Source of the DNA: Chiloscyllium plagiosum
Taxonomy: Eukaryota
Length of the DNA: 63,758 nucleotides
Reading direction: 5' to 3'
Assembly (NCBI RefSeq): GCF_004010195.1
Contig: NC_057718.1
Coordinates: 78,916,676-78,980,433, forward strand
The stretch's first letter is position 1, and each line of letters opens with the position of its first letter. A program made the translations under genes and the position numbers. Of this stretch, positions 1,844 to 41,649 are shown piece after piece. The notes below the pieces were generated by a model. That model saw nothing but the letters and a program-made list of their open reading frames with translations, was not told the DNA's origin and did not search any database.

Positions 1844-2171
1844 GGCCCTTCAAAGATCAGCAAGGCAGCCATTGTGTGGAGCTGCAGGAGATGGAGGAGA
1901 TAGTAAATGAGTGTTTTGCATCAGTGTTTACTGTGGAAAAGTACGTGGAAGATATAGAATGTAGTAGATGGTGACATTTTGAAAAAATGTCCATATTATA
2001 GAGGAGGAAGTGCTGGATATCCTTAAAATGCACAAAAGTGGATAAATCCCCAGGACCTGATTAGGTTTTCCCCCAGAACTCAGTGGGAAGCTAGGGAAGT
2101 GATTGCTGATCCCCTTGCTGAAATATTTGTATCATGGATGTAGGTTTGCTTGCTGAGCTGAAAGGTTCATT

Positions 2172-2400
2172 GGCTGAAAATGTGTTGCTGAAAAGCGCAG
2201 CAGGTTAGGCAGCATCCAAGGAACAGGAGAATCGACGTTTCGGGCATAAGCCCTTCTTCAGGAAAGCCATTCTTTCCTGAAGAAGGGCTTATGCCCGAAA
2301 CGTCGATTCTCCTATTCCTCGGATGCTGCCTGACCTGCTGCGCTTTTCCAGCAACACATTTTCAGCCTCTGATCTCCAGCATCTGCAGCCCTCACTTTAT
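2172..2400. mobile_element. Short palindromic PLE-derived element (family A) with two inverted hammerhead motifs
   Basis: Inverted arms of about 95 bp centred at about 2268, plus a roughly 30 nt tail. 14-bp TSD ctgaaaggttcatt (2158-2171 / 2401-2414). Confidence 0.85.
2277..2304 (+). ncRNA. Minimal type I hammerhead ribozyme motif (mirror copy on - strand at 2234-2261)
   Basis: CUGAAGA-A-GGGC(UUAU)GCCC-GAAA-C-GUC: both conserved core boxes, a 4-bp stem II, a palindromic ACGU stem III and a GUC cleavage triplet. Stem I is weak. Confidence 0.7.
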
Positions 2401-2496: not shown

Positions 2497-2790
2497 GGGC
2501 GGCACGGTGGCTAGCACTTGGGTTCATTTTCCGACTTGGGTTCATTTTCCGACTCAGGCAACTGTTTGTGTGGAGTTTGCATATTCTCCCCATATCTGCG
2601 TGGGTTTCCTCCAGGTGCTCCGGTTTCCCCCCACAGTCCAAAAATGTGCAGATTAGGTGAATTGGCCATGCTAAGTTGCCCGTCGTGTTAGGTGTAGGGG
2701 AATAGGTCTGGGTGGGTTGCTCTTCAGAGGTTCAGTGTGGACTTGTTGGGTGGAAGGGCCTGTTTCCACACTCGAAGGAATCTAATCTAT
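2497..2790 (+). mobile_element. HE1-type V-SINE
   Basis: tRNA-like head, V-domain (gtgtggagtttgca...gggtttcctcc...ccacagtccaaaa) and HER1-like tail with aatct repeats. Confidence 0.9.
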
Positions 2791-4316
2791 TTATATGCCT
2801 GGGTTTCTTTGGGGTGGTAATGTCATTTCCTGTGGTGAAGTCACTTCCTGTTCTTTTTCTCACGGGGTAGTAGAAGGAGTCTAACTCGATGTGTTTGTTG
2901 ATAGAGTTCAGGTTGGAATGCCAATGTTTCTAGGAATTCTTGTGGGTGCCTTTGTTTGGCTTGTCCTAGCATGGATGTGTTGGCCCAGTCGAAGTGGTGT
3001 CCTTCCTCATCAGTATGTGAGGATACTAGTGAGAGAGGGTCATGCCTTTTTTTGGCTAGTTGGTGTTCATGTATCCTGGTGGCTAGTTTTCTGCCTGTTT
3101 GTCCGATGTAGTGTTTGTTACAAAATACCTTGCAAGTATTGTAACAAACACTACATCGAACAAACAGGCAGAAAACTAGTCACCAGGATACATGAACACC
3201 AACTAGCCACAAAAAGACATGACCCTCTCTCACTAGTATCCTCACATACTGACAAGAAAGGACACCACTTTGACTGGGACAACACATCCATCCTAAGACA
3301 AGCCAAACAAAGACATACACGAGAATTCCTAGAAGCATGGCATTCCAACCTGAACTCTATCAACAAACACATCGAGTTAGGCCCCATCTACCACCCCCGA
3401 GAAAAGGAATAGGAAGTGACTTCACCACAGGAAATGACATCACCAACCCAAAGAAACCCAAACATATAAATAGAAAGCAGGAATTTTCAGCATTACTTTG
3501 CATGAGGTCCACTAAAGATGTTACCTAGTAAGATAACGAAACGTCTAGAAATGAATCTTTCAGCTCAGCGAGCAAACCAACATCCAAAACCTCAACCTGA
3601 GATACAAATCTTCTCAAAATGTTTGTTTCATCAATAGTCACAGGTGAGGTGCCGGAAGACTGGAGGTTTGCTAACATGGTGCCACTGTTTAAGGAGGGTG
3701 GTAAGGACAAGCAAGAGAACTATAGATCAATGAGCTTGACATCAGTGGTGGGCAAGTTTTTGCAGGGAATCCTGAGGGACAGGATGTACATATATTTGGA
3801 AAAGCAAGGACTTATTAGGGATAGTCAACATAGCTTTGTGTGTGGCAAATCATGTATCACAAACTTGATTGAGTTTTTTGAAGAAGTAACAAAGAGGGTT
3901 TATGAGGGCAGAACAGTGAACATGACCTATACGGACTTCAGTAAGGCGTTGACAAGGTTTCTATGGGAGACTGGTTAACAAGGTTAGATCTCATGGAATA
4001 TAGGGAGAACTAGCCATTTGGATACAGAACTGGTCCAAAGGTAGAAGACAGAGGGTGGTGGTGGAGGGTTGTTTTTCAGACTGGAGGACTGTGACCAGTG
4101 AAGTGTCACAAGGATCGGTGCTGTGTCCACTCCTTTTTGTCATTTACATAAATGATTTGGATGTGAGCATAATAGGTGTAATAATAGGCATAATAACTTT
4201 GCAAATGACACCAAAATTGGAGATGTAGTGAGCAGCGAAGAAGGTTACCTCAGATTACAATGGGATATCAAATGGAAAGAGCTGCCAGAGGAAGTGATGG
4301 AGGCGAGTACATTTGC

Positions 4317-4520
4317 TGAAAAATGTGTTGCTGGAAAAACGCAGCAGGTCAGGCAGCATCCAAGGAGCAGGAGAATCGATGTTTTGGGCAGAAGCCTTTC
4401 TTCAGGAATGTCCGAAACATCAATTCTCCTGCTCCTTGAATGCTGCCTGATCTGCTGCGCTTTTCCAGCAACACATTTTTCAGCTCTGATCTCCAGCATC
4501 TGCAGTCCTCACTTTCTACT
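4317..4520. mobile_element. Short palindromic PLE-derived element (family A)
   Basis: Same arms as 2172-2400, hammerhead cores mutated or partly deleted. 11-bp TSD agtacatttgc (4306-4316 / 4521-4531). Confidence 0.85.
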
Positions 4521-5779
4521 AGTACATTTGCACCAGTTAAAAGGTATCTGGATGAGTACATGAATAGGAAGGGTTTGGAGAGATATGGGACTAGATTGGG
4601 TTTGGGTGCCTCATCGGCATGGACGGGTTGGGCAGAAGGGTCTGTTTCCGTGCTGTACATCTCTATGACTCTGTGACTCTAAATGGGCCAAGCGGTTGAG
4701 AAGTGGCAGATGGAGTTTAATTTAGATAAATGCATTTTGAGAAAGCAAATCTCAGCAGGACATATACACTTAATGATAAGGTCCTAGGGAGTGTTACTGC
4801 ACAAAGAGACCTTGGAGTGCAGGTTCATAGCTCTTTGAAAGTGAGTCGCAGGTAGATAGGATAGTGAAGAAGGCGTTTGATATGCTTTCCTTTATTGGTC
4901 AGAGTATTGACTACAGGTGTTGGGAGGTCAAGTGGCAGCTGTACAAGGACATTGGTTAGGCAACTTTTGGAATATTCATGCATTTCTAGTCTCCTTCCTA
5001 TTCGCAGGATGTTGTGAAACTTGAAAGGGTTCAGAAAAGATTTACAAGGATGTTGCCAGGGTTGGAGGATTTGAGCTATAGGAAGAGGCTGAATAGGCTG
5101 GGGCTGTTTTCCCTGAAGCATCAGAGGCTGAGGGATGACCTTATAAAGGTTTATAAAATCATGAGGGGCATGGATAGGATAAATAGACAAAGTTTTTTTT
5201 CCCTGGGGTGGGGGAGTCCAGAACTAGAGGGCAGAGGTTTAAGGTGAGGGGGAAAGATATAAAAGAGACCTAAGGGCCAACATTTTCACACAGAGGGTAG
5301 TATGTGTATGGAATGAGCTGCCAAAGGAAGTGGTGGAGTCTAGTATAATTGCAACATTTAAAAGGCATCTGGATGGGTATATGAATAGGAAGGGTTTGGA
5401 GGGATATGGGGCGGGTGCTGGCAGGTGGGACTAGATTGGGTTGGGATATCTGGTCGGCATGGAGGAGTTGGACTGAAGGGTCTGTGTCTATGCTGTACAT
5501 CTCTATGACTCGATACAGTTAACTGAAGGTCCCATCAATGGATTCAAATTTGTGAGTCTTTTCTGCATTTTCTTCAACATATTCATCTCATTCCTAATGT
5601 GTGGGGCCCAGGACTGGACACAGTACTCCAGTTGAAGGCAAACTAGTGCTTTATAACTTGCTTGTTTTGTTTTGTTCTCCCTATTTACAACTCCTAGGAT
5701 TCAGCACCTTTTTTCAACTGTCCTCTAAACTGTTACCATAAATGATTTGTGCATGTACACTCCCAGAATACTGAATGGA

Positions 5780-11110: not shown

Positions 11111-11182
11111 CTCAATGAAAGGCACTTGAAAACCCTTGGAATCACTGGGTTCTCTTGGTACTTGACCTCAGTACTCAGAGGA

Positions 11183-11439
11183 GAAAGTGAGGACTGCAGA
11201 TGCTGGAGATCAGAGCTGAAAATGTGTTGCTGGAAAAGCGCAGCAGGTCAGGCAGCATCCAAGGAGCAGGAGAATCAACGTTTCAGGCATGAGCCCTTCT
11301 TCAGGAAGGAGCCCTTCCTGAAGAAGGGCTCATGTCCGAAATGTCGATTCTCCAGAAGGGCTCATGCCCGAAACATCGATTCTCCTGCTCCTTGGATGCT
11401 GCCTGGCTTGCTGCACTTTTCCAGCAACACATTTTCAGT
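11183..11439. mobile_element. Short palindromic PLE-derived element (family A), opposite orientation, with internal tandem duplication
   Basis: Inverted arms, 15-bp TSD tcagtactcagagga (11168-11182 / 11440-11454), 32-nt tandem duplication at 11322-11385. Confidence 0.85.
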
Positions 11440-11629
11440 TCAGTACTCAGAGGAAAGCCTTACTCTATCGCGAATCTATCAGCAGCAAATGTGAAAGTGT
11501 ATGTGCCTGCGATTGAAAGAACAGCTCCTTAGAGTATCTGTTCATTCTACTTTGAAAGACAACCTTTTTCTGATTGGTCATCGCTGTAATAGATTTTTCC
11601 CATCAGTTTTGGAGAATTCAGGATTGACT

Positions 11630-13554: not shown

Positions 13555-13780
13555 AAAGACAGAAAACTGCAGGAGCTGGAAATTTGAAATCAAAACAGAA
13601 ATTGCTGTAGAAAATCAACAGGTGTAGCTGCATCTGGGGTGAGAAAATAGAGTCAACATTTCGAGTCTTGTGACCTTTCTTCAGAATCAATTCTGAAGCC
13701 TTAAAACATTAACTCTGCCTTCTCTCCACAGATGCTGCCAGGCCTGCTGAGTTTCTCCAGCAATTTCTGTTTTTTCATTT
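13555..13780. mobile_element. Older palindromic PLE-terminus-derived element
   Basis: aacagaaattgctg...gcatctg / cagatgctgccaggcctgctgagtttctccagcaatttctgtt inverted arms. Similar copies at 39830-40045, 38170-38260, 41315-41400 and 56365-57020. Confidence 0.65.
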
Positions 13781-15424
13781 CAATAATTTTTAGTGTTCAT
13801 TGTGAGGGTGCAGACATCACCAGCATGGGATGGTAAAGTACCCCGTGGCTGAACAGGGAGAGGATAGTGATTTTAGTTCACCCTCAGGATGGTAAAGTGC
13901 TCCACATTTGATCAGGGAAAAAGAAGAAAAGGAATGACATCAAATAGGATCTGGCAGGATCTGAAGTCAGGACTATAGTTGACTAAACATAAGAAATGAA
14001 TTGACCAAATGTTTGAAGTTAAATGGAACCCCATCAATCCACCTGTTTTGTAAAGAGGGTGATTAAAAAAAGGAAGGAGAAACAGTGAAGTCAAGGCCTT
14101 AATATTAATCTTTTGTGCTCATGTAGAATTAACAAAATACCTGAATCATTTGAGAGAGAAACAAAGATTGTCCAAATTAATGCCAGTTGGGCCAATATTT
14201 GCGACCCCTGAATCAAACTGAATAATTAAAAGACAAATTCTTTAGTTGGCAGATATTTATCACTGCTGAGAGGTATGAAGATAAACTGCCTTGACATGAT
14301 TGTGTGCTGCTAGTTTGGAATGAGAAAAGTTGGATGCAAAATTAGTTGTGAGATGCTCAAGCGAGCAAACCAAAAGTTAAAAACTGAGATCAGAAGAAAG
14401 TAAGAAAGTATTCACAGTTATAGGAGAGAGAGAGAGAGAGAGAGGGCGGCCAGCCTTTTGTGCTATGGTCCCTGAACTGAATATTAATTCTTGATGAGGA
14501 GCTTATGCTTGAAACATTGTCTCTCCTGCTCCTCGGATGCTGCCTAACCATCTGTGCTTTTCCAGCACCACACTCTCGACCTGTTAACGCTTTATGTTCA
14601 CTTTCGTTTAGTAATTGTTAAACATTGCCATGTGTAATTTATGTGCTTTCATTCCTGAAGTACAGATGTGGGGATACTCTGAGTTCACTTTATATTATAG
14701 GAATGTATGATGATATGAAAGAGTAATGTGTGTATTCTTATCAATTTGGTTATTGTGAGGACCTTTTAGGAACTATCAGTGGTCATGTAAAAGGAAGACC
14801 TACTACAAGATGTTTATTTAAAATATGTTTCTCAGAAGCCTGGTTAAAAAAAACTTTTTGGTATCATTTGAATGAAGCCAATTGAAGAAGAAAAATTAAA
14901 TTAAATGACATACTTTATTTCCTCTTCCCTTAAAATACTGCACAATCCGTGTTATATTTATTTTGAAAGAAGAGTCCAGGGTAAATATTTAACTTCAGAT
15001 ATTTTATGATTGAATTATCATGGTTGGAACTTCATTTCCTGGCCAGAGTGAACTTCCAAATGTTATTTTAACTATGAGTGAACCTTTAACTCTGGATGAT
15101 AAGATTTGCTCATCTTTAATGTTGATTGGTGCGAATTGTGCTCTAAAAATAGTGAAAATTGTAATTTTGAAAATGTAATTTTACTTGGACAAAATTATCT
15201 GATGATATGTTTTGAAATCTGAGAAGACAGATATCAAGGAATTGAAAAAAGTAACATCTAACAAAGGAGGTGGGCTTTCCTTTGTTCAGGAAAGACTTAT
15301 AATACATGGCCCTTAATTCTGTATGGAGGAAAAGGGGCTGTTTACATAATTACTTGCAAGAGTTTTCACCCAGCCTCTTTAGATCAGCAATAAATTATCT
15401 GCACAGCTCAAAGAATTTATATTG

Positions 15425-24412: not shown

Positions 24413-25243
24413 GGAGAAAGTGAGGACTGCAGATACTGGAGATCAGAGTTGAAAAGTGTGGCACTGGAAAAACACAGCAGGTCAGGCAGCATCTGAGGAG
24501 CAGGAGAATTGACGTTTCAGGCATAAGCCCTTCATCAGAAATGTGGAGGGGTGGAGGGCAAGGGGTCTGAGAGATACATACGAGGGTGGAGGTGGGACTA
24601 GGGGGAAGGTAGCTGGGAATGCGATAGGTAAAGGTTGACGGTGATGGTGATAGGTCAGAGGGGAGGGTAGAGTGGATAGGTGGGAAGGAAAATGGACTGG
24701 TAGGACAGTTCAAGAGGGCAGTGCCAAGTTAGAGGGTTGGATCTGGGATGAGGTGGGGGGAGGGGAGATGTGGAAACTGCTAAAATCGATGTTGATGCTG
24801 TGTGGTTGGAGGATCCCAAGGCGGAAGATGAGGTGTTCTTCCTCCAGGCATCGGGCCACCCTGTCGACTGGAGGAAGAATGCCTCATTTTCTGCCTTGGG
24901 ACCCACCAACCACACAGCATCAATGTCGATTTCACTAGTTTCCTCATCTCCCATACCCTCACCTCATCCCAGATCTATCCCTCCAAATCAGCACCGCTCT
25001 CTTCAACTGTCCCAGCAGTCCATCTTTCTTCCCACCTATCCTCTCCACCCTCCCCTCCAACTTATCACCATCATCCGTCACTTCCATCCACCTATCGTCT
25101 TCCCAGCTACCTTCCTCCCCCCCAGCACCAATACCACCTTCCTATTTATCTTTCAGCCCCCTTTACTCCCCCCAACCCTCACATTTCCGATGAAGGGCTT
25201 ATGCCTGAAACATCAATTCTGCTGCTCCTTGCATGCTGCCTGA
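24413..25243. mobile_element. Long fold-back PLE 3' end (family A)
   Basis: Inverted arms of about 400 bp centred near 24860. Includes the terminus of the short palindromes and the GIY-YIG C-terminal remnant (FRLGILQPHSINIDF). Confidence 0.85.
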
Positions 25244-37600: not shown

Positions 37601-37677
37601 GAGAAATTAAATGTTTTGAGGCGATGAATGATCAATGGTCTCATCAAACGTTGAGGCAGGCTCAAGGGGTTGAATGG

Positions 37678-37810
37678 GTAAAAGCAACAACTGCAGATGC
37701 TGGAAATCAGAGTCTAGATTAGAGAGGCGCTGGAAAAGCACAGCAGGTCAGGCAGCATCCGAGGAGCAGGAAAATTGAAGTTTCGGGCAAAAGCCCTTCA
37801 TCAGGACTCC
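37678..37810 (-). mobile_element. Single-arm PLE family A terminus with hammerhead motif
   Basis: 13-bp TSD aggggttgaatgg (37665-37677 / 37811-37823). Minus strand CUGAUGA-A-GGGC(UUUU)GCCC-GAAA-CUUC at 37777-37804. Confidence 0.8.
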
Positions 37811-39080
37811 AGGGGTTGAATGGTCTATTTCTACTCCAAATTGTATTTATGTAGGTTCAAGTCAATATTTATCCCTCAATCAACATAATAAAAAGATTAC
37901 CTGCTCATTATTGCATTACTGCCTGTGGAGGATAATGTGTATAAATGGGCTGCTACATTTCCAATACGACCCTGCAGGTTAAATATCCACAATGGTGATG
38001 CTGTTCAGCAAGCAGATAGGGTTAAAAATCAAGCCTGCAAATTTATTTAGTTATTTGGCGTGGGGTTGATGAGTTGTTGCATTTAAGCAAATTACAAAAA
38101 AAAATTTATATAAATGTGAAATGTTCTGCTTAATATTAATGTTCTGAAGACTTGAAATGTTAACTTTATTCCTCTTCCTGGATGTTACCTGACCAGCCAA
38201 GTTTCTCTAGCATTTGCTATTTTTTTCAGATTTCCAGCATCTGCAGTACCTTGCTTTTATTACAATAATATGTAGTTTTAAGAACATAAGGACAGATGTA
38301 CGCAATTTAGTCTCTCAAGCCTCTTCCACCATTCAACTGGTTCATGGCTGATTACACCTATGGAGAGACAAGAAAGATAATGGACATTGGTGTCATTGTA
38401 CAGGGAATCCAGTAACTGCATTATTCGCATCAAGCCAAGAGGCCATGAATAATAAACATTTGGTTTTGTTATTGTAGGAAATGATCCTTTGCGATTGTTA
38501 ATAATAATAAAGGGCTTATATTTATTTGTAGCAAAATAAATCTTCCTTATAATTATTGATTAATTTTTGAACATTTATGGTTGTCCAGCCCAGCCAATTT
38601 CTGCCCTCCAGCAAGGCATGAAGTTTGTTGAAGGGACTGAAAGACATTGGCTTTGGGCTTCTCAATCGTTAGCTGAAGAGAATTACTGCTCACCCATTAC
38701 CGAAATGTTGAACAAGCAATGTGACAATAGAGAGATGAAGGCTTGAGGCAGTTGGTGGTGAGAAAGAGCTGAATGATTCTCCATGAATTAGGCAGGCAGG
38801 TCATTTGCTAAACTTCATTTTAACATTTAAAGCCATCGCTGTGATTATCCATTTTTATTTAATTTTATTTCAGTTCTGTATTTTGAGTTGCTGCTTTCAA
38901 AGCTTCATATGTTGCATACTTATTAACAGGGTTTTCCTAGGTATCTCTCAACTTTCTGGAATGTGTGCATCACATTGCTACCTCAAGTGTCAACAGTACA
39001 ATGCATTTTTAGCTACTTTTAATCCAAACATATTCAGAGAGTGCACTCATCTTCATGCATGAAATGTTCCATAAGGATAC

Positions 39081-39540: not shown

Positions 39541-40388
39541 GAGAGTTGCCCAAATCTCCTCACAATGTTTTTTCTCTTATTTGGTCATTTGGAGAGCAAG
39601 AGAGTGCTCTTGAAATTAAACAGTGTTGGAGACCCACAGATATGGGAGGGAAGAAGTAAATATAAAAGGATTGGCAGAGAACTGCAGGTAGGCACTAGAT
39701 TATTTGACAAACCAGAGGTAAAGAGCATGGACTGAAGATGGTTTGGGGTTGAACAGCAGAGTGGACTTGGTGTGAACTTCAAGAGCAAGATTAAAAAAAA
39801 CTAAAAAAACTAGGTGCTTAATAGTTAGTAACAAAAGCAGAAATTGCTGGAAAAACTCAGCAGGTCCTACAGCATCTGTACAGAGAAATCAGTATTAATC
39901 CTCTGAAAAATGGGGAAGGGTCACTGGAACAGAAATGTTAACTCTGACTTCTCTCCACAGATGCTGCCAGACCTGCTGAGCTTTTCCAGTAATTTCTGTT
40001 TTTTGCTTCAGATTTCCAGAATCCACAGTTCTTTCCGTTTTTACTTGCTGATTAGTTAGTATCTGGTAACCTTTTATACAAGTCTTCAATAAGTCTTTCA
40101 TTTATTTCTGTTATGTTCAGTTAGTCTACAGAGATATGGTAGGACACCTCAGTCCACTTAATGCAAAAACTGAGCAAACTCCAGGATATTTCTCAAGGAC
40201 TGGATGAGCACATCTTCAGGAAGTGTGGTCAGCTGAAGCAGTTTGAGCTCTGCGTTTCAGAGCCTGAGCAGCAGCTCATTTCTCTCCAATATATCTGTGA
40301 AATTGGTTAGTAAGTTGCTGGATATCGCCATCATGTATTTTGAGTGAATATGCAATAGAGTAGCACCAGAATACACATCTTGCTGTCC

Positions 40389-41088: not shown

Positions 41089-41649
41089 CCCACGAGTGGC
41101 TATGAGCCAGTGCATTTGCAGCAAAAAGCTGCTGGTGGTTCTTCCAGACAGGTTGGTGTCTGAATGGCCAGCAGAGCTTGACAGAGTGGCACCAATTACC
41201 ACGAAGAGAAAGACTGACCTCCACCAGCCAGCCAGCAAGCAAACACCCTCAACACAAATCAATTAACTTAAAAATCTCAACCCTTCGCCTGGAACCTACA
41301 CGAAATAAACGATAAAACCTTGCTGGGGAAACTCAGCAGGTCTGGCAACATCTGCGGAGAGAATAAAAAGTTACCATGTCGACTCCAGACACCGTTCTTA
41401 AGAGGTAAAATATCTTGATTTATGAAACAGCGGAAGCTTCCCCTCTGAGGGCCTGATGCAAAGAAAAACAAAATCACCACGGTTGGAAAAAGTAAGCAGC
41501 CGATTCCTTTCACCTTTATGTTCCTGGGGGATAGAAAACAGTTGACCTGTTCCTTCCCACGCGAATAACTGCAGTGAATTGATGTATTCGAGTTAATGTG
41601 CTTCAGGTTGATCAGACAATGGGAAATGAACACAGAGGTGTGCACACAC

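What the first reader, a model, noticed from the sequence alone, without database searches (positions are those of the whole stretch)
2172..2400. Short palindromic non-coding retroelements carrying hammerhead ribozyme motifs on both strands
Seen: a roughly 230 bp hairpin with a 14-bp TSD. Each arm holds CUGAAGA-stemII-GAAA-C-GUC, so a hammerhead core is transcribed from either strand. Independent insertions with their own 11-15 bp TSDs occur at 4317-4520 and 11183-11439, with a single arm at 37678-37810 and a long version at 24413-25243. In the short copies the fold-back point lies within a few nt of the CUGANGA box and one arm carries an extra 30 nt tail. Known: PLE pseudo-LTRs carry minimal type I hammerheads thought to cleave as dimers, and PLE insertions often show 5' inversions. 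Inference: these are either a retrozyme/SINE-like non-autonomous family mobilised by PLE RT, or a stereotyped fold-back product of PLE insertion tied to the ribozyme. The differing centres favour independent formation.
Basis: partly seen in the sequence, partly recalled or inferred. Interest (0 to 1): 0.8.

Follow-up and report, generated by a model that had tools for sequence, protein, structure and literature searches.

The report
Twin-primed Penelope retroelement hairpin stubs
The 230-base hairpin is a real insertion made of two head-to-head copies of the tail end of a Penelope-like jumping gene, a known kind of debris that is very abundant in this genome; its regular shape likely arises because both cut DNA strands start copying the element's RNA at two fixed points, which is a useful clue to how these elements insert.

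Summary
Window 2172-2400 is a 96%-complementary hairpin with a 14-bp target-site duplication (TSD) and a 34-nt tail on one arm only. Both arms carry CUGAAGA / 4-bp stem / GAAA / ACGUC. The four other copies are real.

It is not a new class of element. Longer copies run without a break into a GIY-YIG endonuclease ORF whose homologues have RT followed by GIY-YIG. The unit is therefore the 3' module of a Penelope-like element (PLE). An inverted 5'-truncated copy, a 30-40-bp tail at one end and a TSD together are the published PLE signature.

What the census adds:
- **Arm ends:** 35 of 42 hairpins pair one tailed end (T) with one tail-less end (t). None was T/T or t/t.
- **Inner boundary:** arms mostly end within 4 nt upstream of the CUGANGA box, not at the predicted ribozyme cut.
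- **Centres:** they fall into recurrent microhomology classes formed anew at each insertion. One 35-mer junction has 825 exact copies, each of the 23 fetched with its own TSD.
- **Arms:** the two arms of a copy are more alike than arms of different copies.

The best reading is twin target-primed reverse transcription at two fixed start sites. Ribozyme cleavage was not tested. A whole-hairpin transcript would bury the core in a duplex of about -185 kcal/mol.

This scan had already noted the same thing at least 8 times elsewhere in this genome.

The parts
2158..2171 (.). left copy of the 14-bp target-site duplication CTGAAAGGTTCATT
   Evidence: family D2, exact repeat with 2401-2414
2172..2266 (-). 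tail-less (t-ended) arm. Read on the minus strand it is the PLE 3' module, from just upstream of the CUGAAGA box to ...CACATTTTCAGCC.
   Evidence: 95.8% to the right arm over 96 nt
2234..2261 (-). minimal hammerhead core of the left arm (CUGAAGA, A, GGGC-UUAU-GCCC, GAAA, CGUC)
   Evidence: motif read from sequence. No Rfam hammerhead match.
2267..2400 (+). tailed (T-ended) arm: same module in sense orientation on the plus strand
   Evidence: Genome-wide relatives are 97-98% identical.
2277..2304 (+). minimal hammerhead core of the right arm; predicted cut after C2304
   Evidence: cleavage not tested
2367..2400 (+). 34-nt tail, present on this arm only (the sequence between the two inferred reverse-transcription start sites)
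   Evidence: Matches the 30-40-bp PLE tail of PMC8557442 and PMC11167929.
2401..2414 (.). right copy of the target-site duplication
4317..4520 (+). second hairpin. The t arm (left) reaches 4 nt upstream of the box; the T arm (right) starts inside helix II (joint CAGGAAT|GTCCGAAAC). TSD 4306-4316 / 4521-4531.
11183..11439 (-). third hairpin, tailed arm on the minus strand. The centre has a 32-nt duplication of the core. TSD 11168-11182 / 11440-11454.
14488..14574 (+). older single arm (80% to arm 1) with helix II GAGC/GCTT
24413..25243 (-). long hairpin. Arms of about 440 nt reach into the 3' end of the endonuclease ORF. The left arm is T-ended and the right arm is cut short. No TSD found.
37678..37811 (-). 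single arm of an older subfamily starting 2 nt upstream of the box; TSD 37666-37677 / 37812-37823

Best explanation
These are short insertions of the 3'-terminal module of Penelope-like retrotransposons, and the hairpin form likely arises when both nicked target strands prime reverse transcription of that RNA at two fixed internal sites.

**Shown**
- The unit is a PLE end.
- Each hairpin is a separate insertion with its own TSD.
- One arm ends at the tailed site (T, ...CTCACTTTCTCC). The other ends 34 nt earlier (t, ...CACATTTTCAGC).
- Inner ends cluster 1-4 nt upstream of the hammerhead box.

**Inferred**
- The template is a short RNA whose 5' end lies at that boundary, probably a transcription start at the Inr-like TCATTCC.
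- One target 3'-OH starts cDNA at t and the other at T, probably on the same RNA with the t-primed cDNA leading.
- The two growing cDNAs are joined by a template switch that uses 1-3 nt of microhomology in the box or helix II.
- The hammerhead rides along as part of the copied module. Its cleavage is not needed to explain any end.
For: **PLE identity**
- The arm is contiguous with an ORF reading C..C..IIYCIRC..YIGETGR (L068:1643-2239). Pfam GIY-YIG scores E 0.0086, below the cut-off.
- Homologues at 49-85% identity show RVT_1 followed by GIY-YIG. P0004 scores 23.2 bits against a cut-off of 22.6.
- A partial tandem (pLTR) copy lies at L030:829-1271.

**Census of the first 44 hairpins along C1 from an end-blind pattern**
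- 2 were dropped for N gaps.
- Of the 42 left: 35 T/t, 5 T/shorter, 2 without T, 0 T/T, 0 t/t.
- 36 of 42 have a TSD of 14 nt or more.
- The t arm is the more complete at the centre in 17, the T arm in 6, and 12 are about equal.

**Unbiased 864-kb sample**
- About 21 TSD-flanked hairpins, of which 19 are T/t.
- 15 TSD-flanked single arms. 10 start 1-7 nt upstream of the box and none starts at the cut site.

**Inner boundary**
- 53 of 82 arms with a box have ATTC directly upstream. 58 of the 82 do not continue into shared UTR.
- Read loose ends pile up at the A of ATTC, at t and at T.

**Independent formation**
- 12 hairpins among the 20 best relatives have varied centres, only two of them alike.
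- Arms within a copy differ at 3.04 positions per 71 nt, against 4.22 between copies. 0 of 5000 permutations reached this.

**Published support**
- PAc protein cleaves and extends both target strands, and starts at two internal sites that bracket the tail (PMC11167929, main text read).
Against: - No direct evidence for the RNA 5' end. The only raw RNA run is single-cell polyA, and it showed no pile-up of starts or ends.
- In vitro, PAc uses both start sites on both strands without preference (PMC11167929). The strict T/t pairing therefore needs an extra coupling that is only inferred here.
- Exceptions exist within the 825-copy joint class: L119 is T/T, and L123 and L149 have the tail on the other arm.
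- 5 of 42 second arms end short of t.
- The young family's longest copies (L104, L106) gave no Pfam domain, so no intact autonomous parent was found.
- An RT pause at the boundary, rather than an RNA end, is not excluded.
Confidence: 0.72

Rival explanations
1. Snap-back self-priming. A single target-primed cDNA runs off the RNA, folds back on itself through the palindromic helix II region and copies itself. The inverted arm would then be a second strand, not a second TPRT event.
For: - Recurrent joints fit 2-3-nt pairings of a cDNA 3' end (...CAGG or ...GGAAT) onto helix II or loop II of an antisense strand.
- Arkhipova et al. 2013 proposed self-priming from palindromes at inverted junctions (PMC3846280, passages read).
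Against: - A self-copied arm should end where the first cDNA began, giving T/T or t/t. The census found 0 of 42 such hairpins.
- In 17 of 23 unequal pairs the arm that is complete at the centre is the tail-less one. A snap-back copy cannot then carry 34 nt more at its outer end.
- In both arms the antisense strand abuts a target 3' end, as direct TPRT predicts.
Confidence: 0.15
2. The hairpin is itself a replicating non-autonomous element (SINE- or retrozyme-like). A master hairpin would be transcribed and retrotransposed as a unit by PLE RT.
For: - One 35-nt joint has 825 exact copies, against 0 for the control.
- All 23 members examined have their own TSDs.
- 4 of about 21 hairpins in the unbiased sample carry this joint.
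Against: - The same joint sits on at least 4 subfamily backgrounds.
- The commonest background has 10,834 exact arms that continue past the joint point, about 13 times more than the joint.
- The joint is 7 of the first 100 hairpin centres, alongside other recurrent classes with 8, 7, 4 and 3.
- Outer ends and tail side vary among members (L119, L123, L149).
- Private variants are shared by both arms. That fits re-formation from one template.
- The cores are inverted, so no monomer can be excised.
- No pol III head matched.
Confidence: 0.08
3. Miniature inverted-repeat or foldback DNA transposon.
For: Terminal inverted repeats with a TSD.
Against: - The ends are asymmetric: a tail on one arm only, in 35 of 42.
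- TSD length varies between about 11 and 21 nt.
- Single arms insert with TSDs of their own.
- There is a continuum to copies carrying the endonuclease ORF.
Confidence: 0.01

Closest known systems
Insertion units of endonuclease-bearing Penelope-like elements (Arkhipova et al. 2013, PMC3846280; Craig et al. 2021, PMC8557442; passages read)
   Same: - 5'-truncated copies with an adjacent inverted 5'-truncated copy.
- A 30-40-bp tail at one end only.
- A TSD and a palindromic joint.
- A hammerhead motif in the pLTR.
   Different: - Here the structure is reduced to its minimum, two stubs of about 95-130 nt with no ORF.
- It is present in thousands of copies.
- The inner ends are quantified and cluster at the 5' edge of the hammerhead.
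PAc (Poseidon of Anolis carolinensis) in vitro (Frangieh et al. 2024, PMC11167929; main text read)
   Same: - Both target strands are cleaved and extended.
- Reverse transcription starts at two adjacent internal RNA sites, and the tail lies between them.
- The hammerhead lies some 60-100 nt upstream of those sites.
- Cleavage is not needed for insertion.
   Different: - In vitro there is no strand preference for either site. In this genome the two arms of a hairpin almost always use different sites.
- The ORF start does not overlap stem II here. The ATG in loop II stops after 29 codons (read).
Minimal type I hammerheads of PLEs (Cervera and de la Pena 2014, PMC4209133; Results read)
   Same: - CUGANGA core and GAAA.
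- An unpaired base 5' of helix II.
- A short helix I.
- Helix III reduced to a small palindrome (ACGU), which suggests action as a dimer.
- Pairs of motifs 100-700 bp apart on opposite strands were already noted in Schistosoma mansoni.
   Different: - Helix II is 4 bp, not 7-8.
- The paired motifs are explained here as the two arms of one insertion.
L1 twin priming (Ostertag and Kazazian 2001; recalled, not read here)
   Same: A second target 3' end primes on the RNA, which gives an inverted 5' part joined by microhomology.
   Different: In L1 the inverted piece covers RNA upstream of the direct piece. Here both arms cover the same 3' module and start at two fixed sites 34 nt apart.
Animal non-LTR retrozymes (bioRxiv 10.64898/2026.07.22.740005; abstract and passages read)
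   Same: Non-coding, hammerhead-bearing derivatives of PLE pLTRs.
   Different: Retrozymes are direct tandem repeats that can release monomers. These units are inverted or solitary.

Membership tests
EN+ Penelope-like element insertion | [quoted passage not shown] | tested here: met
   - The endonuclease part is contiguous with the arm in L068 and L002.
- Pfam GIY-YIG scores 16.8 bits, below the 22.6 cut-off.
- Homologues P0003 and P0004 show RVT_1 then GIY-YIG. Only P0004's GIY-YIG score (23.2 bits) passes a Pfam cut-off; both RVT_1 scores are below theirs.
- The RT part was not found attached to this family in the loci fetched.
EN+ Penelope-like element insertion | [quoted passage not shown] | tested here: met
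   A 34-nt tail at 2367-2400. 35 of 42 hairpins are T/t and 0 are T/T.
EN+ Penelope-like element insertion | adjacent inverted 5'-truncated copy, and partial tandems (pLTR) | tested here: met
   Hairpins. A partial tandem with a 319-bp period and one TSD at L030:829-1271.
EN+ Penelope-like element insertion | target-site duplication of variable length | tested here: met
   11-21 nt with at most 1 mismatch.
Minimal type I hammerhead (PLE min-HHR) | conserved core CUGANGA ... GAAA ... UH | tested here: met
   Read in both arms of 2172-2400. The most frequent form in 81 arms has the box and GGGC-loop-GCCC.
Minimal type I hammerhead (PLE min-HHR) | helices I and II supported by pairing and covariation | tested here: inconclusive
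   - Helix II is GGGC/GCCC in most of 81 arms. GAGC with GCTC or GCTT occurs in 4, and single-sided changes in about 7.
- Helix I is AUUC against GAUU, 3 of 4 pairs (read).
Minimal type I hammerhead (PLE min-HHR) | self-cleavage, alone or as a dimer | not testable with these tools
   - No pile-up of ends at the predicted cut in the one raw RNA run, which is a weak test.
- No insertion ends at the cut: 0 of 15 single arms.
Rfam hammerhead families | match to a curated covariance model | tested here: not met
   No hammerhead match at gathering score over the window, nor at E up to 10 on 2150-2420. This is expected for a motif without helix III.
Retrozyme | two or more hammerheads in the same orientation, so that a monomer is excised and circularised | tested here: not met
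   The arms are inverted, so each transcript has one sense core. The whole-hairpin RNA folds to -184 / -190 kcal/mol with the core paired.
SINE | pol III head derived from tRNA, 7SL or 5S | tested here: not met
   No such Rfam match at E up to 10.
MITE / foldback DNA transposon | symmetric terminal inverted repeats and a fixed short TSD | tested here: not met
   Asymmetric ends and a variable 11-21-nt TSD.

The most novel reading that the evidence does not exclude
The roughly 130-nt module is a complete retrotransposable unit in its own right. Its RNA would start at an initiator 4 nt before the hammerhead box, so any stub with the boundary could seed new stubs. One such RNA would be read twice in a fixed order, first from the t site by one nicked strand and then from the T site by the other. 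That would give a concrete rule for the long-unexplained tail and inverted-repeat architecture of all Penelope-like elements.
Probability: 0.3. Interest if true: 0.6.

Novelty: new member of a known kind. Interest (0 to 1): 0.4.

Why it matters
How Penelope-like elements integrate is still open. The tail and the inverted repeats have been described for twenty years without an agreed mechanism, and the first in vitro system dates from 2024.

This genome offers thousands of minimal, young, TSD-flanked products of that reaction. They show three regularities:
- one tailed end paired with one tail-less end;
- a discrete inner boundary at the front edge of the hammerhead;
- microhomology joints.

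These are direct constraints on any model, and each can be tested in vitro.

On the practical side, the hairpins score against microRNA precursor models and could be mis-annotated. If transcribed they would form long double-stranded RNA.

Tried and rejected
- **Rfam:** no hammerhead match. Only microRNA-hairpin models matched, below their gathering scores.
- **RNA evidence:** no RNA holder listed. The one raw RNA run laid is single-cell polyA. It showed no place where molecules begin or end, and 94% of laid reads run on into unrelated flanks.
- **Second lay:** meant to look for empty sites in DNA runs.
- **Protein identity from the older copy:** Pfam gave nothing for the 104-aa piece of L002. 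A search among longer proteins gave one uncharacterised protein. The Atlas gave nothing usable.
- **Walk to a full-length young element (L101-L108):** 31 ORF pieces gave only one RVT_1 hit, 4.3 kb upstream in L108, which may belong to another element.
- **DNA search with the joint region:** found nothing because all its words are too common. It was replaced by exact patterns.
- **Master-hairpin idea:** raised by the 825-copy joint and rejected.
in my reading of about 8 TSD-flanked single arms, 2 show a G next to the boundary. In hairpins with two full arms the extra base cannot be told from position -5 of the other arm. Not confirmed.
- **DPE-like motif downstream of the putative initiator:** positions +28 to +32 read ACGTC, a poor fit to the consensus as I recall it.
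- **Print search:** searches for 'Penelope-like' with 'twin priming', and for PLE with shark and hammerhead ribozyme, found no paper describing these stubs.
- **Not available:** Repbase and Dfam could not be consulted.

Full report
**1. Observation**

- Arms 2190-2266 and 2272-2348 are 96% complementary and 5 nt apart. An exact 14-nt direct repeat flanks the element at 2158-2171 and 2401-2414.
- BLAST of the right arm against the window extends the pairing to 2172-2266. This leaves 2367-2400 as a 34-nt tail on the right arm only.
- Both arms read CTGAAGA-A-GGGC-TTAT-GCCC-GAAA-CGTC, with C2304 as the predicted cleavage base.
- The copies at 4317-4520, 11183-11439, 37678-37811 and 24413-25243 are real. 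The first three have TSDs of 11, 15 and 12 nt.
- Two corrections apply. In 4317-4520 the right arm begins inside helix II and the left core is mutated, so not all copies carry two cores. The long copy has no detectable TSD.

**2. What it is**

The genome is 3.56 Gb and the family is very abundant.
- A 129-nt arm gave 2,422 first-look candidates.
- An unbiased 864-kb sample, taken as three stretches on three contigs, held 163 arm hits.
- One 49-mer of one subfamily occurs 10,834 times exactly, against 0 for the control.

Longer copies run upstream without a break into coding sequence.
- L002 and the window's long hairpin reach ...YIGETG...HFN...GINVDF.
- A young copy, L068:1643-2239, has C..C..IIYCIRC..YIGETGR. 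Pfam calls GIY-YIG there only weakly, at E 0.0086 and 16.8 bits against a cut-off of 22.6.
- Its homologues are 49-85% identical and are named only as uncharacterised proteins of two carpet-shark species. They show RVT_1 followed by GIY-YIG. Only one GIY-YIG score (23.2 bits) passes its cut-off; the RVT_1 scores do not.

[quoted passage not shown] A partial tandem insertion with one TSD (L030:829-1271) supplies the pseudo-LTR form. The unit is therefore the 3' end of a PLE: about 270 nt of UTR, the hammerhead motif, then about 62 and 96 nt to two alternative ends.

**3. Comparison with print**

- Arkhipova et al. 2013 (PMC3846280, passages) describe an ORF between pLTRs and an adjacent inverted pLTR. 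They also describe a 31-bp tail on one of the inverted pLTRs, a TSD, and palindromes at the inverted joint that they read as self-priming.
- Craig et al. 2021 (PMC8557442, passages) give the same scheme for all EN+ PLEs.
- Cervera and de la Pena 2014 (PMC4209133, Results) define the minimal hammerhead of PLEs. They noted pairs of motifs 100-700 bp apart on opposite strands.
- Frangieh et al. 2024 (PMC11167929, main text) show three things for a lizard PLE protein. It cleaves and extends both target strands. It starts reverse transcription at two internal RNA sites that bracket the tail. It does not need hammerhead cleavage.

The window's hairpins are the minimal form of this known architecture.

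**4. What the census adds**

(a) *Outer ends.* An end-blind pattern asks for an antisense arm reaching the box, a gap of up to 30 nt, then the sense GAAACGTCGATTCTCC. It has 8,431 matches, with some hairpins counted on both strands.
- I fetched the first 44 distinct hairpins along contig C1. Two were dropped for N gaps.
- Of the 42 left, 35 pair a tailed end with a tail-less end, 5 pair a tailed end with a shorter arm, and 2 lack a tailed end. None is T/T or t/t.
- 36 of 42 have a TSD of 14 nt or more with at most one mismatch.
- In the 864-kb sample, 19 of about 21 TSD-flanked hairpins are T/t.
- Of 15 TSD-flanked single arms, 12 end at T and 3 at t. Independent choice would therefore predict mostly T/T.

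(b) *Inner ends.*
- Of 82 arms with a recognisable box, 53 have ATTC directly upstream, and 58 do not continue into UTR shared with other copies.
- 10 of 15 TSD-flanked single arms start 1-7 nt upstream of the box. The other 5 start within the next 18 nt. None starts at the predicted cut.
- Loose ends of reads and contigs from three coded organisms pile up at the A of ATTC, at t (two nearby places) and at T.

(c) *Centres.*
- Among the 20 relatives closest to the window's arm, 12 are hairpins, and their centres vary, with only two alike.
- Yet one 35-nt joint occurs 825 times exactly, and all 23 members fetched have their own TSDs.
- I tested whether this marks a replicating master hairpin, and it does not. 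The joint sits on at least four subfamily backgrounds. The commonest background is about 13 times more frequent in arms that run on past the joint point.
- The joint is 7 of the first 100 centres, beside other recurrent classes with 8, 7, 4 and 3.
- Each recurrent class can be written as a cDNA end at 1-4 nt upstream of the box, paired by 1-3 nt to the box, helix II or loop II of an antisense strand.

(d) *Arms.* Within a copy the arms differ at 3.04 positions per 71 nt, against 4.22 between copies. None of 5000 permutations reached this. The subfamily marker is in both arms or in neither in 22 of 23 copies.

**5. Mechanism**

In both arms the antisense strand abuts a target 3' end, which is the polarity of target-primed reverse transcription. 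Four facts fit two primings on one short RNA:
- strict T/t pairing;
- arms alike at birth;
- the t arm more often complete at the centre (17 against 6, with 12 equal);
- microhomology joints.

In this model one nicked strand starts at t and runs ahead. The other starts at T, and the two cDNAs are joined by a template switch.

This is inference, not demonstration. A single cDNA snapping back on itself would give equal outer ends, which the census did not find, so I rank it lower.

The discrete inner boundary is best read as the 5' end of the RNA.
- The sequence there is TCATTCC, which fits an initiator.
- D. virilis Penelope has an internal TATA-less promoter (PMC2377424, passages).
- The partial tandem copy also begins at the box of its upstream repeat.
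- An RT pause at this point is not excluded.

**6. The hammerhead**

- The core, the unpaired A, the 4-bp helix II and the ACGU palindrome in place of helix III fit the published minimal type.
- Rfam's models do not match.
- Covariation is thin: GAGC with GCTC or GCTT in 4 of 81 arms.
- Cleavage could not be tested.
- A transcript of the whole hairpin is predicted to fold into a near-perfect duplex of -184 to -190 kcal/mol, against -29.5 for one arm. This buries both cores. Having a hammerhead on either strand is therefore a by-product of the inversion, and each transcript carries only one sense core.

**7. Verdict**

The finding is real and well described, and it belongs to a known kind. The new content is the quantified regularity of the ends and joints, which bears on the open mechanism of PLE integration.

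Earlier notes of this scan reached much the same reading on at least 8 other windows of this genome. I tested the twin-priming and boundary claims myself. I could not confirm the extra-G claim.

Noticed in passing
window 39822-40040: A hairpin of a second, related family. Its arms carry ...GAAGGGTCACTGGAAC(A)GAAATGTTAAC... (a hammerhead-like motif with a longer helix II) followed by GATGCTGCCAGACCTGCTGAGCTTTTCCAG. The right arm has an extra tail (CTTCAGATTTCCAGAATCCACAG...). The architecture is the same as in the finding. Related single pieces lie at 13690-13763 and 41320-41359.
   Followed up: partly
window 2320-2366 and the matching parts of other copies: The block GATGCTGCC.GACCTGCTG.GCTTTTCCAGCA, with a small stem (CTGCTG ... 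CAGCA) just before the t site, is conserved across PLE subfamilies and in the second family. It may be the protein-binding and initiation module, by analogy with the AC-rich stem-loop of PAc.
   Followed up: no
window 2224-2314: The hairpin scores against microRNA precursor models: mir-3179 at 61 bits and MIR6136 at 57 bits, both below their gathering scores. Such stubs could be mis-annotated as microRNA genes.
   Followed up: no
L082:300-311 (reads of run X21): 13 RNA-library reads with 12 start places join opposite strands at the unit's 5' boundary. Hairpin centres are therefore present in a polyA RNA library. Pre-mRNA or DNA carry-over is not excluded.
   Followed up: no
L030:829-1271: One insertion with one TSD contains two units in direct order with a 319-bp period. 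The first starts exactly at the box and reads on past the T end into internal sequence. This is a pLTR-type or retrozyme-like partial tandem.
   Followed up: partly
window 2516-2551: An exact 18-nt tandem duplication, ACTTGGGTTCATTTTCCG x2.
   Followed up: no
L104 and L106 (G000:C36 and C43): Two young copies share 4.7 kb upstream of the unit, but no ORF piece of 70 aa or more hits Pfam. The young family may be driven by long non-coding or decayed elements.
   Followed up: partly
runs X1-X20: Three coded organisms hold the repeated part of the stretch (shares 0.15-0.27 in small runs). The family is therefore shared by related species.
   Followed up: no
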